From Octopus vulgaris (lineage: Eukaryota), in NCBI GenBank assembly GCA_951406725.2, contig OX597831.1, forward strand, positions 56,234,001-56,298,000: a stretch of DNA of 64,000 bases. Direction: 5' to 3'. The translations under genes and the position numbers were made by a program. This document shows positions 13,380 to 57,243 of this stretch, in pieces (position 1 is the first letter of the stretch; each line of letters starts with the position of its first letter). A model generated the notes under the pieces. The model saw only the letters and a list, made by a program, of their open reading frames with translations. It was not told the DNA's origin and searched no databases.

Positions 13380-13523
13380 TCAACTAATATAACTATTAAG
13401 ATATGATACAAACATACAAGAAAGTTTCTTCGTATCTTCAACAGGATGCATTTTTGTGTAAGTAATAAACTGTCGTCTGTACCGCTGTAGTTCTGATAAT
13501 GGTAGGTGACGATTAAATACTAT
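13380..13523 (-). CDS. KTI12: KTI12 terminal exon (C-terminal tRNA-binding region)
   Basis: IVFNRHLPLSELQRYRRQFITYTKMHPVEDTKKLSCMFVSYLNSYIS* matches 'ELSRLRRQFISYTKMHP...MFLQYL'. Stop TGA at 13382-13380. Confidence 0.95.
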   Translation of the reverse strand: MVFNRHLPLSELQRYRRQFITYTKMHPVEDTKKLSCMFVSYLNSYIS

Positions 13524-14574
13524 CTGGATTGTTAAGGAATTTAATAATCACTATAATATTTAATCTTCAGTAAATAGCAATAACACACAGATCAAAAGAA
13601 TATGATAATTGCAAGAAAACAATCAAATTATGTAGAGAGAGAGAGACTAGGAAGTAAATAAATTCTGATTAATATGTTCCAGATAAAAATTTTAAAAAGG
13701 GACCAACTAAAGAATTCATCTCAGTGTAATTTAAGGCTCTTTTGAATATACTAGAGTGGTTTTCTATTACTTTGTCCAATCACGAGGAAAAATCGAAGCT
13801 CTGCAAGTCATCAATTATAAAATACTTCTGCATAAGGTGCTTATTTACAGATACATAAACTAGTCATGTCTTTTTGCAACACAGGTGATGGGAAGTGAAA
13901 CACTATATTTACGTAATAGTGTCTAAGATATACATCTTTTCTAAAATAATGTCTTCAAAAAAAAAAAAAAACACCCTGAGTCCCACAAATTAATTTTGTC
14001 CCCAACACTGGATATGTACAGCTGATATTGGGGTGCATCTTTTTTGCTTATGTATCTTTCATGTCATCAAATCTAATACTGACTTTTTAGCAACTGTAGT
14101 AGAGAAAGCACTATGAGGTTCAACAAAAGGAAGATTTTAGTCCAATAACATGATTTTTCAGAATAATCTTCAACACAAGTTGAAAACACATAAACATACA
14201 TCCCATCTTTATATAATTTACCTTCTAAATAGTCTGCAATGGTAAACAACTACACAATGTGTTCTTCCCATAGAGGATGCTGGTTCAGTCAGATTCCATT
14301 TTTTTACTAAAACAAATGGATGGATAAGTTTCTTCCCACAAATCCATCATGTACATGCATGTATGTGTGTGTGTGTGTGTGTGCACATGGTACAGGCATG
14401 GCTGTGTGGTATTGCAGTTCCCTTTATAACCATGTGGGTTCAAGTTCCATCCCACTGCATGGAACTTTGGCCATGTGTCAAGATTCTTCTAATGTAGCTT
14501 TAAGCCTACCAATGTCTTGTGAGTGAAACTGGTAAATAAAAAACAGTATAAAAGTCTATCAGATATATATATAT

Positions 14575-14975
14575 AGGCGCAGGAGTGGCTGTGTGGTAAG
14601 TAGCTTGCTTACCAACCACATGGTTCTGGGTTCAGTCCTGCTGCGTGGCATCTTGGGCAAGTGTCTTCTGCTATAGCCTCGGGCCGACCAATGCCTTGTG
14701 AGTGGATTTGGTAGACGGAAACTGAAAGAAGCCTGTCGTATATATGTATACATGTGTATGTATGTGTGTATATGTTTGTGTGTCTGTGTTTGTCCCCCTA
14801 GCATTGCTTGACAACCGATGCTGGTGTGTTTATGTCCCCGTCACTTAGCGGTTCGGCAAAAGAGACTGATAGAATAAGTACTGGGCTTACAAAGAATAAG
14901 TCCCGGGGTTGATTTGCTCGACTAAAGGCGGTGCTCCAGCATGGCCGCAGTCAAATGACTGAAACAAGAGAAAGA
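14575..14975 (+). mobile_element. tRNA-derived CORE-like SINE, family A, full length (inside the U12 intron)
   Basis: Head AGGCGCAGGAGTGGCTGTGTGGTAAG, B-box GGGTTCAGTCC, CORE-like CTTGGGCAAGTGTCTT, internal microsatellite and a GACTGAAACAAG tail. More than ten further copies in both orientations. Confidence 0.9.
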
Positions 14976-15169
14976 GAGAAAGAGATATGCACACACACAG
15001 ACACTGTGTGTACATGTCTTTGTCCATGGATGTGCTCACATGACTATTTCTGCATCTTCATACTGACACCTTGTAACAAGAATACTGGGTTTACGTTTCC
15101 AGTAAATGATACATTTTGTAGCTCAATGATTACAGCATAATGAAGTTCAGCAGAATAAAAATATTTTAA

Positions 15170-15388
15170 CCCTTTAGCATTCAGATTGCTTTATCAACTG
15201 TAATGCTTAATTAATCACATTGTTTTTAATTAATAATCTATTATCCCACAACTTTTTTTTGAAGATCTGGTTGTATATATTATTAGAATGATATTGTAGG
15301 ATAGGTGTGAGAGGCAGGATCTGGCCAGTTTGAACATAAAACAGGTAGAATTTTGGGGCCAGATATGGCCTGTTTAAATGCTAAAGGA
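15170..15388 (-). mobile_element. piggyBac-type MITE (about 220 bp)
   Basis: TTAA on both sides and CCCTTTAGCATT termini. Confidence 0.85.
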
Positions 15389-15852
15389 TTAAATAAATTG
15401 ATAATGGTTGTTGACAAGAACAGCTTGGTGTATATTATCTTGATAAGTCTCATCCAACACATGCCACTATGGAAAAAGCAGGCAAAAAACAACTATCATA
15501 TACATTTGTATATGCAAGTGTGTCTATACTAGCATAAACTCCTGGTATTTACTCCCTCCAAAGAGTGTATGTATGTATACTAGTAATGTGTATATAATGT
15601 ATATAGTGATGTGAATATACTTGTATAAACTCCTTGTGTTATTTAATCTTTAAAAGAAGGTAACTCTCTAAAAGAAAATAGCTCAATAAGTAAACACGGC
15701 CATTTAATAAACGAGTATCTAAGTACTGTGATCAATATTACCATGTGGCCATGCAGGCGCACAAACTTCAAAACTCTTGAGGTCATGCTCCAGCTTGGCC
15801 ACAGTTCACTGACTGAAACCAACAAAAAATGATTAAAACAGAAAAAGGATAC

Positions 15853-15921
15853 TTTCTCTTCCACTCCTGGAATAGTAAATTGATCTCCTGGGACACTCGA
15901 ACTCTGAGCTTGCATAATTGT
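15853..15921 (-). CDS. KTI12: KTI12 penultimate exon
   Basis: ttttttccatcAG acceptor, GTATCCTTT donor. TIMQAQSSSVPGDQFTIPGVEEK matches 'LMEAQKSAVPGDLLTLPG'. 69 nt. Confidence 0.92.
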
Positions 15922-16204
15922 CTGATGGAAAAAATAAAAAGAGAACTGCTTAGATTGAATGCAATGACATATACTACAATTAAAATGACATACATCACCA
16001 TTGTTTAACGTCCGTTTTCCATGCTGGCATGGGTTGGACAGTTTGACTGAGGTCTGGAGAGCCAGCGGCTGCACCCGGCTCCAATTTGATCTGGCAATGT
16101 TTCTACAGCTGCATGCTCTTCCTAACGCGAACCATCCTGAGAGTATAGTGGGTGCTTTTTACGTACCACCAGCACAGGAGCAAGTCAGGGAGTACCGGCA
16201 TCGG

Positions 16205-16830
16205 CAACATTCAGATGGTGCTCTTTTGTGCCACTGGCACGGGAGCTAGTTAGAGGGTACTGGCATTGGCCACGTTCAGATGGTGCTTTTTATGTGCCCT
16301 TGGCATGGGAGCTAGTTAGAGGGTACTGGCACTGGCCACGTTCAGATGGTGCTTTTTATGTGCCACTGGCACGGGAGCTAGTTAGAGGGTACTGGCATTG
16401 GCCACATTCAGATGGTGCTTTTTATGTGCCACTGGCACGGGAGCTAGTTAGAGGGTACTGGCATTGGCCACGTTCAGATGGTGCTTTTTATGTGCCACTG
16501 GCACGGGAGCTAGTTAGAGGGTACTGGCATTGGCCACATTCAGATGGTGCTTTTTATGTGCCACTGGCACGGGAGCTAGTTAGAGGGTACTGGCATTGGC
16601 CACGTTCAGATGGTGCTTTTTATGTGCCACTGGCACGGGAGCTAGTTAGAGGGTACTGGCATTGGCCCCGTTCAGATGGTGCTTTTTATGTGCCACCAGC
16701 ATGGGGGCCAGTCAGGCAGTCCTGGCACTAATCACATTTGGATAGTGCCTTTTATGTGACACCAGTATGGGAGCCAGTCAGTGAGTACTGGCATTGGCCA
16801 TGTTCGGTTGATGCTTTTTACGTGCCACCA
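16205..16830. repeat. 66-bp minisatellite inside a LINE 3' UTR fragment (about 15995-16835)
   Basis: The unit motif TCAGATGGTGC starts at 16211, 16276, 16342, 16408, 16474, 16540, 16606 and 16672, followed by diverged units. Confidence 0.95.
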
Positions 16831-16894: not shown

Positions 16895-16957
16895 TTTTAT
16901 TGTAGTATTTGTCACACAATCAAGATCATAGAGAAAATTTGTTGATGACAAAGGTTG
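16895..16957 (-). CDS. KTI12: KTI12 exon
   Basis: tttcttttcAG acceptor, GTAAGT donor. QPLSSTNFLYDLDCVTNTTIK matches 'QPLASGSFLHQLDQVT'. 63 nt. Confidence 0.92.
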
Positions 16958-17660: not shown

Positions 17661-17820
17661 TGATTGTGTTGACATATTTGGAGGTGGAGCCTTTCGAGAA
17701 AATAGAGCATCTGCAATTTTCTGCTTTGGTAATTCATCTCCTTTTTGAATCACAAATAAAGGACTATCCCATCGAGTCTGAGAACTGGGCATTTCCAAAC
17801 ATTGAGCAAGTTGTTCAAGT
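17661..17820 (-). CDS. KTI12: KTI12 exon (ExP...RWDSPLF motif)
   Basis: tttcAG acceptor, GTAAGT donor. LEQLAQCLEMPSSQTRWDSPLFVIQKGDELPKQKIADALFSRKAPPPNMSTQS. Confidence 0.95.
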
Positions 17821-20109: not shown

Positions 20110-20189
20110 ATGTCTTCAGAATACTGTTCCGATTCTAGCCTATTCTTGTTCCATTCACTGCACTGTTGCAGGTTAGCTGCACAGTACAC
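20110..20189 (-). CDS. KTI12: KTI12 exon
   Basis: ttttaatgtAG acceptor, GTAAGT donor. VYCAANLQQCSEWNKNRLESEQYSED(I) carries the family 'WN..R' motif. 80 nt, phases 0 and 2. Confidence 0.9.
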
Positions 20190-26038: not shown

Positions 26039-26094
26039 CACACAGTGAGGTGTGGAACTTGACTTAGCAACACAATACAGCTCATAGCGGAATC
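26039..26094 (-). CDS. KTI12: KTI12 exon
   Basis: cttttcatAG acceptor, GTGAGT donor. (G)FRYELYCVAKSSSTPHCV matches 'GFRYELYCLARAARTPLCL'. Confidence 0.95.
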
Positions 26095-29960: not shown

Positions 29961-30476
29961 TCTATATATATAAAACTGTAGTTGTGTGAGTGTCTGTCCC
30001 CTTCGATTTAGATTCCTAACTACTCCCACATTTTGCGGTGCAGTTTAACCAAATTCAGGTATCTTATAGTCGTGATTCATATCGAGCCCTGTCTGAGTAT
30101 TAGCACGCGTCTACGATGAGTCTACGATTTTAAAAAATAATTTAACATCATTTTTTATTCCATTTTAATGCATAATTTTTCGTGTGTCGATGGCGGCGGA
30201 GTTGGCGTCCATGGTCACACCTGCACCTGTTTGCTTCTCCCCCTTCTTCCCTCCCTCGTGAAGCTGTGGGGAAGGGAGTGTAAGGAAATCAACGTCGTAA
30301 AGCGTTGTCAAGGAGACCAGCGTTCTTTTAGAACAACGACTTCATGGCTTGAAGACACCAAAACAGAAATGGACTAAGAAAGCCCAAATTGGCATCCATA
30401 AGGGAAGTAACTCTCTAAAAATGCTTATATAGTTATTTCCCTTACTAACCCGAGCAACGCCGGGCGATACTGCTAG
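29961..30476 (+). mobile_element. Non-autonomous Helitron
   Basis: Inserted between A and T. 5' TCTATATATATAAAA, subterminal hairpin CCCGAGCAACGCCGGG, 3' CTAG, no TSD. Confidence 0.9.
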
Positions 30477-38373: not shown

Positions 38374-38886
38374 CTAGCAGTATCGCCCGGCATTGCTCGG
38401 GTTTGTAAGGGAAATAATTATATAAGCATTTTTAGAGAGTTACTTCCCTTATAGATGCCAATTCGGGCTTTCTTAGCCATTTCTGTTTTGGTGTCTTCAA
38501 GCCATGAAGTCGTTGTTCTAAAAGAACGCTGGTCTCCTTGACAACGCTTTACGACGTTGATTTCCTTACACTCCCTTCTCCACAGCTTCACGAGGGAGGG
38601 AAGAAGGGGGAGAAGCAAACAGGTGCAGGTGTGACCATGGACGCCAACTCCGCCGCCATCGACACACAAAAAATTATGCATTAAAATGGAATAAAAAATG
38701 ATGTTAAATTATTTTTAAAATCGTAGACTCATCGTAGACGCGCGCTAATACTCAGACAGGCTCGATATGAATCACGACTATAAGATACCCGATTTTGGTT
38801 AAACTGCACCGCAAAATGTGGGAGTAGTTAGGAATCTAAATCGAAGGGGACAGACACTCACACAACTACAGTTTTATATATATAGA
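38374..38886 (-). mobile_element. Non-autonomous Helitron, near-identical to 29961-30476
   Basis: Reverse complement of the first copy with only scattered substitutions. TC...CTAG ends at an A^T site. Confidence 0.9.
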
Positions 38887-45259: not shown

Positions 45260-45312
45260 CTTTAGTGTAGTTCATAGCATCAAGTATGGTAACATATTCC
45301 TTAGAAATAGAT
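45260..45312 (-). CDS. KTI12: KTI12 exon (Walker-B-like DxxNYxKG)
   Basis: tatttAG acceptor, GTGAGT donor. SISKEYVTILDAMNYTK(G) versus conserved 'LSRHDVVILDSLNYIKG'. Phase-compatible. Confidence 0.92.
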
Positions 45313-53560: not shown

Positions 53561-53612
53561 CTTTGGACAGCAGATTTGAGTAAACCTCTGGCTTCTCTTT
53601 CTTTCATGGAAT
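53561..53612 (-). CDS. KTI12: KTI12 (Elongator-associated P-loop ATPase), most 5' exon found
   Basis: ttttatAG acceptor, GTAATA donor. (D)SMKEREARGLLKSAVQ(R) matches the KTI12 'DS..EK..RG.L.S.V.R' segment. 52 nt, phases 1 and 2. Confidence 0.88.
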
Positions 53613-55208: not shown

Positions 55209-55800
55209 TTAAATGTTTTGAGTACATAATTATATTTAAAACGCATGTTTTTATATAGAAAATTATTTAGTTAAGCTTTCCCTAACACACTACATGTAGC
55301 ATTCCACCACACATTAAGCAATCCCACAAGCCAAATTTCCCTCAAACCACATCCTATGCCTAAAAATAGGATGCATGCATAGGAATACTGTAGTCCTAAA
55401 TACCTATGACTGAATGAACCTGGGAACATCATCTAACATCTAAATGAAGAATGAGCCAAGGTTAACTTCTAATTGGTTACTTAACCCACTGGAAATAACA
55501 CCCAAATTTTCTAATCACAACCCATTATCTTAAAAGGAAAGATACACCTAGATGCACACGGCTGATAATATGCCAGAATAGTACAGCCTGAAGTCCTTTC
55601 ATCATAGATCTCTTCAATCATTGCTGGTCAGATGATCAGAGAGCTAAACAGTCGTCATTTCCATTATCATCATCATCCTCCATTAATAACTTGTACGCAT
55701 TGAGCACAACCACAAACATTCCAACATTTTAGTGCCTTGACTTTTTCTATATCATATTTCTGATTAAACACACTACTTCTGCTTCAATTAATTTTGAAGA

Positions 55801-56668
55801 ATTTACTCTTTACTCTTTTAATTGTTTCAGTCATTTGACTGTGGCCATGCTGAGGCACTGCCTTTAATCGAGCAAATCGACCCCGGTACTTATTCTTTTG
55901 TAAGCCCAGTACTTATTCTATCGGTCTCTTTTGCCAAACTGCTAAGTAACGGGGACATAAACACACCAGCATCAGTTGTCAAGCAATGCTAGGGGGACAA
56001 ACACACATATATATATATACATATATATGACGGGCTTCTTTCAGTTTCCGTCTACCAAATCCACTCACAAGGCATTGGTCGGCCCGAGGCTACAGTAGAA
56101 GACACTTGCCCAAGGTGCCATGCAGTGGGACTGAACCCGGAACCATGTGGTTGGTAAACAAGCTACTTACCACACAGCCACTCCTGCGCCTTGACTTTTT
56201 CTATATCATATTTCTGATTAAACACACTACTTCTGTTTCAATAAATTTTGAAGAATTTACTCTTTACTCTTTTAATTGTTTCAGTCATTTTTTACTGTGG
56301 CCATGCTGGGGCACTGCCTTTAGTTGAGAAAATCGACCCCAGGATTTATTCTTTATAAGCCTAGTACTTATTCTATTGGTCTCTTTTGCCGAACCTCTAA
56401 GTTACAGGAACGTAAACACACCAGCATCGGTTGTCAAGCGATGTTGGGGGGGGGGGGGGGGTCAAATACAGACACACAAACATACACATATATATACATA
56501 TACACGACAGGCTTCTTTCAGTTTCCGTCTATCAAATCCACTCACAAGGCTTTGGTCGGCCCGAGGCCATAGTAGAAGAAAATTGCTCAAGGTGCCACGC
56601 AGTGGGACTGAACCCGGAACCATGTGGTTGGCAAGCAAACTATTTACCAAACAGCCACTCCTACGCCT
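55801..56668 (-). mobile_element. Two tandem family A SINEs (about 55801-56190 and 56256-56668)
   Basis: Each is a full reverse complement of the 14575 element. They are separated by duplicated flank. Confidence 0.88.
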
Positions 56669-57243
56669 ATTTAGTAAAAGAACTATAATTATTAAGCTGG
56701 TGTTTGGAAGATCCATAAATTAGCATGAAATCTTAATGGAAGACCTTAATTTAGATTACTTTAGAACAAGAAGTTTGTATTACAGATATAGGGCGGTCTC
56801 AGGCATGTTGATATCAAAAGGAAGATGGTTTAAACTGTCAAGCATTGCCTAAGACACCCAGAGCTGCTCATTAGCTAAGCCATCACCTGGGAACTGACAC
56901 ATAAGAGAATCAATGGTGTGCAAAACCATAGACAATACCTTGATGGAGGACATCAACAGTAGTAATACTGCTGGCCTTGAACTGGAATCAGAAGCAATTA
57001 TTATTATTGGAAAGGCAGCAAGCTAGCAGAATTGTTAGTGAAGTGATGGTAGCCAGTTCTGAGGTCGCCTAGAGGTTATCATTGAGGCCACAGGCAGGTT
57101 CATCATGTGAGATCGACAGAACATGTCATGAAGACAAACTGACCCCAAAAATATGTGTGTGTGTGTGTACACACACACACACATATATATACAAATATAC
57201 AGATACATGTGAGTGTGTGTGTATATATATATATATGTATGTA

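What the first reader, a model, noticed from the sequence alone, without database searches (positions are those of the whole stretch)
13524..15852. KTI12 carries a canonical U12-type minor intron just before its C-terminal exon
Seen: donor GTATCCTTTTT, branch TTCCTTAAC with the branch adenosines 9-10 nt from the AG, no polypyrimidine tract, and an in-frame join (EEK|IVF). The other six KTI12 introns here have ordinary U2 donors. Known: RTATCCTTT and TCCTTAAC are the U11/U12 recognition signals, minor introns are rare and often rate-limiting, and human KTI12 has an intronless coding sequence, so it would be absent from human-based minor-intron lists. Inference: output of this Elongator cofactor (tRNA wobble U34 modification) may be gated by the minor spliceosome in this lineage.
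Basis: partly seen in the sequence, partly recalled or inferred. Interest (0 to 1): 0.72.

Follow-up and report, generated by a model that had tools for sequence, protein, structure and literature searches.

The report
Ancient minor intron in octopus KTI12
The last intron of the octopus tRNA-modification helper gene KTI12 carries the signals of the rare "minor" splicing machinery and is cut out exactly there; corals and fish have a minor intron at the same spot and humans lack it, so it is likely an old inherited intron rather than an octopus-specific control switch.

Summary
Observation confirmed. Intron 8 of 8 of the single KTI12 gene (15852-13524, minus strand, phase 0) has the only GTATCCTT in the window and a TTCCTTAAC branch site. 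One transcript-type contig joins 15853 to 13523 (1 of 4 runs laid anything), and U11, U12, U4atac and U6atac genes are present. It is not lineage-specific. Among 46 related loci, the same position holds an AT-AC U12 intron in coral-like, cnidarian-like and fish-like DNA (7), a U12 branch with AG (2), a U2-type intron (16) or no intron (20); 1 was uninformative. Human KTI12 is a published orphan retrogene. So the octopus intron likely switched from AT-AC to GT-AG. New detail: the branch-to-AG spacing (9-10 nt) is the shortest among orthologues, and an AG 4 nt downstream is used in an Octopus bimaculoides RefSeq isoform. That isoform replaces the predicted tRNA-binding helices with a frameshifted tail. 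This is probably splicing noise. "Gating" of KTI12 output is untested, and repeated loss argues against need. No paper searched names this intron, but public intron catalogues could not be checked.

The parts
13524..15852 (-). KTI12 intron 8 (last), 2329 nt, GT-AG subtype U12-type intron, phase 0 after residue 227
15842..15852 (-). U12-type 5' splice site GTATCCTTTTT; pairs with the 5' end of the genome's own U11 and with the U6atac AAGGAGA box
   Evidence: donor:U11 duplex -9.6 kcal/mol against -0.2 to -5.3 for the seven other donors
13531..13539 (-). U12-type branch site TTCCTTAAC, adenosines at 13533 and 13532
   Evidence: complementary to the GUAAGGAA stretch of the genome's U12
13524..13526 (-). 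main acceptor CAG, 9-10 nt from the branch adenosines; gives the normal C-terminus
   Evidence: contig junction; EEK|IVF proteins
13520..13522 (-). competing acceptor TAG 4 nt downstream, 13-14 nt from the branch adenosines; shifts the frame into a 59-codon tail
   Evidence: tail 54 of 59 identical to the tail of O. bimaculoides isoform X1, P0005; not seen in contigs of this genome's runs
13380..13523 (-). exon 9 coding part, 47 residues plus stop; predicted helices 236-252 and 258-272 with R241, R243, R244, K251
15853..15921 (-). exon 8
16895..16957 (-). exon 7
17661..17820 (-). exon 6
20110..20189 (-). exon 5
26039..26094 (-). exon 4
45260..45312 (-). exon 3
53561..53612 (-). exon 2 (exon 1 lies beyond the window at G000:C18:56300786-56300933)

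Best explanation
This is a GT-AG intron with U12-type signals, cut out exactly at 15853/13523, likely by the minor spliceosome, and likely inherited from an AT-AC minor intron that already sat here in the common ancestor of corals and bilaterians. U11 and U6atac would read the GTATCCTTTTT donor and U12 the TTCCTTAAC branch (sequence match shown; splicing by that machine inferred). KTI12 is single-copy here, and the last exon encodes the two final predicted helices with the basic residues that likely bind tRNA, so every functional KTI12 message needs this splice (inferred). On the line to octopus the ends likely switched from AT-AC to GT-AG. The short branch-to-AG gap likely lets a second AG 4 nt further on be chosen in some transcripts, giving a frameshifted, probably inactive protein. 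That leak is most likely a by-product, not a regulated switch. The intron itself appears dispensable, since other animals converted it to U2 type, deleted it, or replaced the gene with a retrocopy.
For: Signals and chance. Junction. All four minor snRNA genes over Rfam cut-off: U12, U11 (22), U6atac (23), U4atac (94). Single copy: all 7 matches of the protein search lie at this locus. Same-position intron in DNA: ATATCCT donor, CCTTRAC branch and AC end in 7 of 46 loci (5 distinct: three coral-like, one cnidarian-like, one fish-like); U12 branch plus CAG with the donor off the contig in 2; U2-type ends in 16 (13 with both ends seen); no intron at the site in 20, of which at least 7 have introns elsewhere; 1 uninformative. 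Seven public gene models read K|ISF (ATATCCTTT) at this junction: amphioxus P0047 and P0297 (both inserts end in Y, fitting TAC), coral P0132, fishes P0078, P0114, P0177, P0231. Human KTI12 is an orphan retrogene (PMC3548309, PMC5408686). Subtype switch, conversion, loss and retroposition are known fates (PMC2831892). Optimum spacing is 11-13 nt and U12 3' site choice is error-prone (PMC3584512). Orthologue spacings are 11-17 and 26-27 nt against 9-10 here. Yeast Kti12 R281, K283, R284, K291 together are needed for tRNA binding and U34 modification (PMC11995267); the octopus residues have the same spacing.
Against: No lariat, knockdown or raw-read data; dependence on the minor spliceosome rests on sequence. 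Only 1 of 4 runs gave a contig, and its RNA nature is a guess of the tool. The +4 acceptor is known only from predicted RefSeq models of a sister species; it did not appear, and no longer protein with that tail was found. The branch:U12 duplex energy did not separate intron 8 from U2 introns (intron 3 scored stronger). ISF alone is not proof: intronless locus L018 encodes K-ISFL naturally. The U2-type group and loci L031 and L036 could not be placed in a taxon (nearest named tails 68% or less), so the order and timing of switch and conversion are parsimony guesses. The yeast-to-octopus residue match is by spacing, not by alignment.
Confidence: 0.8

Rival explanations
1. The intron is a regulated gate: slow minor splicing of the last intron limits KTI12 output and hence Elongator-dependent U34 tRNA modification.
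For: Single-copy gene. Retention would give 69 foreign residues and a stop in place of the 47-residue last exon. The U12 type has been kept in cnidarian-like, fish-like and octopus DNA. The rate-limiting model is described in PMC3584512.
Against: No retention data. U2-type or absent in 36 of 46 related loci (some of these are transcripts or duplicates). Replaced by a retrogene in humans. A survey of over 3000 genomes finds mostly neutral evolution of minor introns (PMC10639083 passages).
Confidence: 0.15
2. The tandem acceptor is a functional octopod switch: choice between the AG at 9-10 nt and the AG at 13-14 nt sets the ratio of active KTI12 to a tail-swapped form that escapes junction-dependent decay.
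For: The distal AG sits nearer the reported 11-13 nt optimum than the proximal one. Four RefSeq accessions of O. bimaculoides use it against one for the normal junction. The 59-codon frame has the same length in both species, 54 of 59 identical.
Against: Not conserved: the two unnamed cephalopod-like proteins begin exon 9 with IC, which cannot hold this AG, and the fish, coral, L031 and L036 exons lack an AG at +4. The tail is 76% hydrophobic in its last 25 residues, typical of translated AT-rich UTR. The only contig laid uses the proximal AG. Similar tails in two close species follow from shared DNA.
Confidence: 0.12
3. The intron is now spliced by the major spliceosome, and the U12 signals are relics or chance.
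For: GT-AG ends are compatible with U2 splicing, and orthologous introns did convert in another invertebrate group.
Against: The donor has C at +5 and +6 and a full U12 consensus, and the branch is a perfect match. Chance is about 6e-7 for the gene. Converted orthologues have lost both signals. The scan of exon 8 and the first 350 intron bases found one U2-like GT, 110 nt into the intron.
Confidence: 0.03

Closest known systems
GT-AG subtype U12-type (minor) introns (PMC3584512)
   Same: RTATCCTTT donor, TTCCTTRAC branch near the 3' end, weak pyrimidine tract, one minor intron among major ones, minor snRNA genes present.
   Different: Branch-to-AG gap of 9-10 nt is below the reported 11-13 nt optimum; phase 0, which minor introns tend to avoid (PMC10639083).
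U12 intron clusters with subtype switch and conversion (PMC2831892: 36 clusters with both subtypes, 8 with both subtypes plus a U2 orthologue, of nearly 1000)
   Same: AT-AC U12, GT-AG U12 and GT-AG U2 forms at one codon position and phase.
   Different: KTI12 is not named in that paper's text or its one supplement; here loss and retrogene replacement are seen too.
CCDC16/ZNF830, a U12 intron lost from humans by retroposition (PMC2831892)
   Same: Minor intron absent from human lists because the human gene is an intronless retrocopy; AT-AC in other animals.
   Different: Different gene; there the minor intron is the only intron of the fly gene, here it is the last of eight.
KTI12/DRL1 family (Pfam PF08433; PDB 6QP0; archaeal PSTK 3ADB)
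   Same: PF08433 covers residues 1-270, E 1e-89; best fold matches are Chaetomium Kti12 and PSTK.
   Different: Nothing unusual in the normal protein; the +4 isoform loses the Pfam match beyond profile position 227.

Membership tests
U12-type intron | 5' splice site RTATCCTTT | tested here: met
   GTATCCTTTTT at 15852; only GTATCCTT in the window
U12-type intron | branch site TTCCTTRAC close to the 3' end | tested here: met
   TTCCTTAAC at 13539-13531; none in the last 50 nt of the other seven introns
U12-type intron | branch-to-3' distance near 11-13 nt | tested here: inconclusive
   9-10 nt inclusive, short of the optimum in PMC3584512; the counting convention could not be checked because the primary papers are not held
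U12-type intron | no distinct polypyrimidine tract | tested here: met
   pyrimidine share 0.59, but U2 intron 4 has the same value
U12-type intron | removed at the predicted ends in transcripts | tested here: met
   contig from run X9 joins 15853 to 13523 (1 of 4 runs)
U12-type intron | U11, U12, U4atac and U6atac present in the genome | tested here: met
U12-type intron | splicing depends on the minor snRNPs | not testable with these tools
   needs knockdown or lariat mapping
U12-type intron | classified as minor by intronIC or a trained PWM | not testable with these tools
   no classifier or annotated training set on hand; consensus match and a Markov estimate used instead
KTI12 (PF08433) | full-length Pfam match with N-terminal P-loop domain and C-terminal helical domain | tested here: met
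KTI12 (PF08433) | tRNA binding and Elongator interaction through basic C-terminal residues | not testable with these tools
   R241, R243, R244, K251 present with the yeast spacing; activity not measured
Rate-limiting (regulatory) minor intron | elevated or condition-dependent retention that limits protein output | not testable with these tools
   only assembled contigs were available; they cannot give levels

The most novel reading that the evidence does not exclude
After the AT-AC to GT-AG switch, octopods gained a tandem acceptor at this minor intron. The working AG sits closer to the branch than the minor spliceosome prefers, and the better-spaced AG swaps the tRNA-binding helices for a hydrophobic tail without triggering junction-dependent decay. 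Its use would vary by tissue and act as a minor-spliceosome dial on Elongator tRNA modification.
Probability: 0.1. Interest if true: 0.65.

Novelty: new member of a known kind. Interest (0 to 1): 0.36.

Why it matters
A single U12 intron in an octopus is ordinary: 401 are catalogued for O. bimaculoides. What gives this one modest value is its history. One codon position shows AT-AC U12, GT-AG U12, U2 type, deletion and retrogene replacement. The three-type combination was seen in only 8 of nearly 1000 clusters in PMC2831892. It is a minor-spliceosome target that human-based lists cannot show, yet fish appear to have it, so zebrafish minor-splicing mutants could have a KTI12 defect that human patients lack (inference). 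It also explains wrong C-termini in at least seven public KTI12 models. The natural 9-10 versus 13-14 nt acceptor pair is a ready test of the spacing rule for minor-intron 3' ends.

Tried and rejected
RNA evidence: no listed holder is on record as RNA. Three of four runs laid nothing on the 211 bases around the acceptor, which says nothing about expression. Only the acceptor side was laid, so retention and donor use were not read directly. A search for longer proteins with the frameshifted tail found none among 20 candidates (weak evidence). The branch:U12 duplex energy was rejected as a discriminator. A GTATCCATT-like string in exon 1 is coding sequence, not a donor. The first exon table had two one-base errors, corrected. 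The 43 U6atac matches were considered as a new repeat family and dropped: 45 copies are already listed for O. bimaculoides. I could not place the U2-type loci or L031 and L036 in a taxon; no tree was built. Print searches: KTI12 with 'minor intron' gave 0 papers; none of the 20 of 475 or 25 of 431 listed papers holds 'kti12'; none of the 12 of 458 listed links Elongator to minor introns by title or abstract start. Supplement searches for kti12 were blank in PMC10639083, PMC11347168, PMC2831892, PMC13216214 and PMC9992838; such tables may use gene IDs. The supplement of PMC9501576 could not be read, and introns.info and other online catalogues were out of reach, so the intron may already be listed there. 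Three primary papers on U12 3' site choice are not held.

Full report
Observation. On the minus strand the intron runs from 15852 to 13524 (2329 nt). It starts GTATCCTTTTT and ends TTCCTTAAC-AATCCAG. GTATCCTT occurs once on both strands of the window, and a Markov estimate for donor plus branch is about 6e-7 over the gene's eight introns. The branch-motif adenosines lie 10 and 9 nt from the end, counted inclusively. The pyrimidine share before the AG is 0.59, the lowest in the gene but tied with U2 intron 4.

Gene. Nine exons, the first just outside the window, give an open 274-aa frame with intron 8 in phase 0 after residue 227. A 274-aa protein labelled Octopus vulgaris and O. sinensis has the same exon peptides (P0128). 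It matches Pfam KTI12 over residues 1-270, and its model matches Chaetomium Kti12 and archaeal PSTK best. All 7 matches of a protein search in the genome lie at this locus, so no second copy was seen (counts from this tool are lower bounds). Introns 1-7 have U2-like donors.

Splicing evidence. Four coded runs from four studies, all guessed to be RNA, were laid on 211 bases around the acceptor. One gave a contig: 832 nt, matching 13432-13523 and continuing into the end of exon 8. That fixes the junction at 15853/13523. The other three laid nothing. The genome holds U12, U11, U6atac and U4atac genes above Rfam's cut-offs. The donor pairs with the genome's U11 at -9.6 kcal/mol against -0.2 to -5.3 for the other seven donors, and with U6atac at -7.8 against -0.1 to -6.8. 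The same test for branch and U12 did not discriminate. Dependence on the minor spliceosome is therefore inferred from sequence, not shown.

History. A metagenome scan with the C-terminal alignment gave 46 loci, all of which were read at the junction. Seven have an AT-AC U12 intron at exactly this position and phase: five coral-like (three distinct exon sequences), one 81% like Porites in the last exon, and one 100% like a fish. Two more have a U12 branch and CAG, with the donor off the contig. Sixteen have U2-type ends and no U12 branch. Fifteen of these form one unnamed invertebrate group (11 distinct sequences) and one is sea-star-like; 13 show both ends. Twenty are continuous across the site, at least seven of them genomic with introns elsewhere, others probably transcripts. 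One starts inside the exon. Independently, 6 of 266 aligned proteins read K|ISF, the translation of ATATCCTTT, right at the junction: amphioxus, Porites lobata and four fishes. A seventh, from a second amphioxus, came. Both amphioxus inserts end in Y, fitting a TAC end, and are absent from correct models of the same genus. ISF is not proof alone, since intronless L018 encodes it. With cnidarians and chordates both AT-AC, parsimony makes the octopus GT-AG form derived; when it switched is open. Human KTI12 is listed as an orphan retrogene (PMC3548309, passages) nested in TXNDC12 (PMC5408686, passage). Four distant proteins, one from the fungus Smittium and three unnamed, also break off at this junction, a weak hint that the position predates animals.

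Competing acceptor. The O. bimaculoides RefSeq isoform X1 (P0005, four accessions) reads EEK|YLIVTY, while X2 (one accession) reads EEK|IVF. This equals use of the AG 4 nt downstream. In the window that frame runs 59 codons, 54 of 59 identical to the P0005 tail. The distal AG is 13-14 nt from the branch adenosines. The orthologous U12 introns have 11-17 nt (one has 26-27), so the octopus main acceptor is the closest of all. A review gives 11-13 nt as optimal and calls U12 3' site choice error-prone (PMC3584512, passages); cryptic sites are the commonest alternative event at minor introns in mouse and human (PMC6717393, passages). Against a function: the AG is not conserved outside octopods as far as seen, it rests on predicted models, it was not seen, and the tail is 76% hydrophobic at its end. 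That such tails are usually degraded is recalled, not from a call.

What the last exon does. In the model (pLDDT 85) the intron falls in a small hairpin between helix 189-209 and helices 236-252 and 258-272. Exon 9 carries R241, R243, R244 and K251, spaced like yeast R281, K283, R284 and K291, in the helix whose combined substitution abolishes tRNA binding and U34 modification (PMC11995267, passages). The match is by spacing only. Retention would add 69 foreign residues and stop. So both failure modes likely give inactive protein. This makes the splice necessary, but not shown to be limiting.

Comparison with what is known. The intron meets every U12 feature that could be tested, apart from the short spacing. 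Subtype switch, conversion, deletion and retroposition are all described (PMC2831892, passages; PMC1557818, passages). That paper counts 8 of nearly 1000 clusters with both U12 subtypes and a U2 form, and gives CCDC16/ZNF830 as a U12 intron lost from humans by retroposition. O. bimaculoides has 401 catalogued minor introns (PMC11347168, supplement rows). A broad survey favours mostly neutral evolution (PMC10639083, passages). No searched paper or supplement names a KTI12 minor intron, but online catalogues and one zebrafish supplement could not be seen. The scan's own notes hold nothing on KTI12.

Verdict. Real U12-type intron, new member of a known kind, with an unusually full evolutionary series and a leaky tandem acceptor. 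The gating idea remains possible but unsupported. Interest 0.36.

Noticed in passing
G000, e.g. L007:1501-1616 and L008:1501-1617: 43 dispersed U6atac matches among 46 scored candidates; L008 looks like a retrocopy inside a common repeat. 45 copies are already listed for O. bimaculoides.
   Followed up: partly
proteins P0047, P0297, P0078, P0114, P0132, P0177, P0231: Public KTI12 models of amphioxus, a coral and four fishes read into the AT-AC intron (K|ISF) and have inserts or wrong C-termini.
   Followed up: yes
proteins P0003, P0004, P0005: O. bimaculoides RefSeq models lack the true 5' exons (135 and 147 aa, or 269 aa with a foreign N-terminus).
   Followed up: no
L016:5386-6207: Intronless full-length KTI12 on an 80.5-kb contig of an unnamed animal-like source; possibly an independent retrogene replacement.
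   Followed up: no
proteins P0257/P0287, P0263/P0289, P0283, P0286: Distant KTI12 proteins (33-40% identical to octopus), one from the fungus Smittium, diverge or stop right after the same junction; the intron position may predate animals.
   Followed up: partly
L022:1071-1934: AT-AC U12 intron with a long branch-to-end distance of 26-27 nt.
   Followed up: no
window 16200-16830: Tandem array of about 60-bp units inside KTI12 intron 7, read by eye.
   Followed up: no
window about 30030-30470 and 38380-38830: Two near-identical copies of a roughly 430-bp element in opposite orientation, 8 kb apart in intron 3.
   Followed up: no
window about 55730-56680: Direct duplication of a roughly 450-bp repeat-containing unit in intron 1.
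   Followed up: no
G000:C2:87560708-87571165: Three weak exon-like matches to PF08433 in order; may be the related PSTK gene (guess).
   Followed up: no
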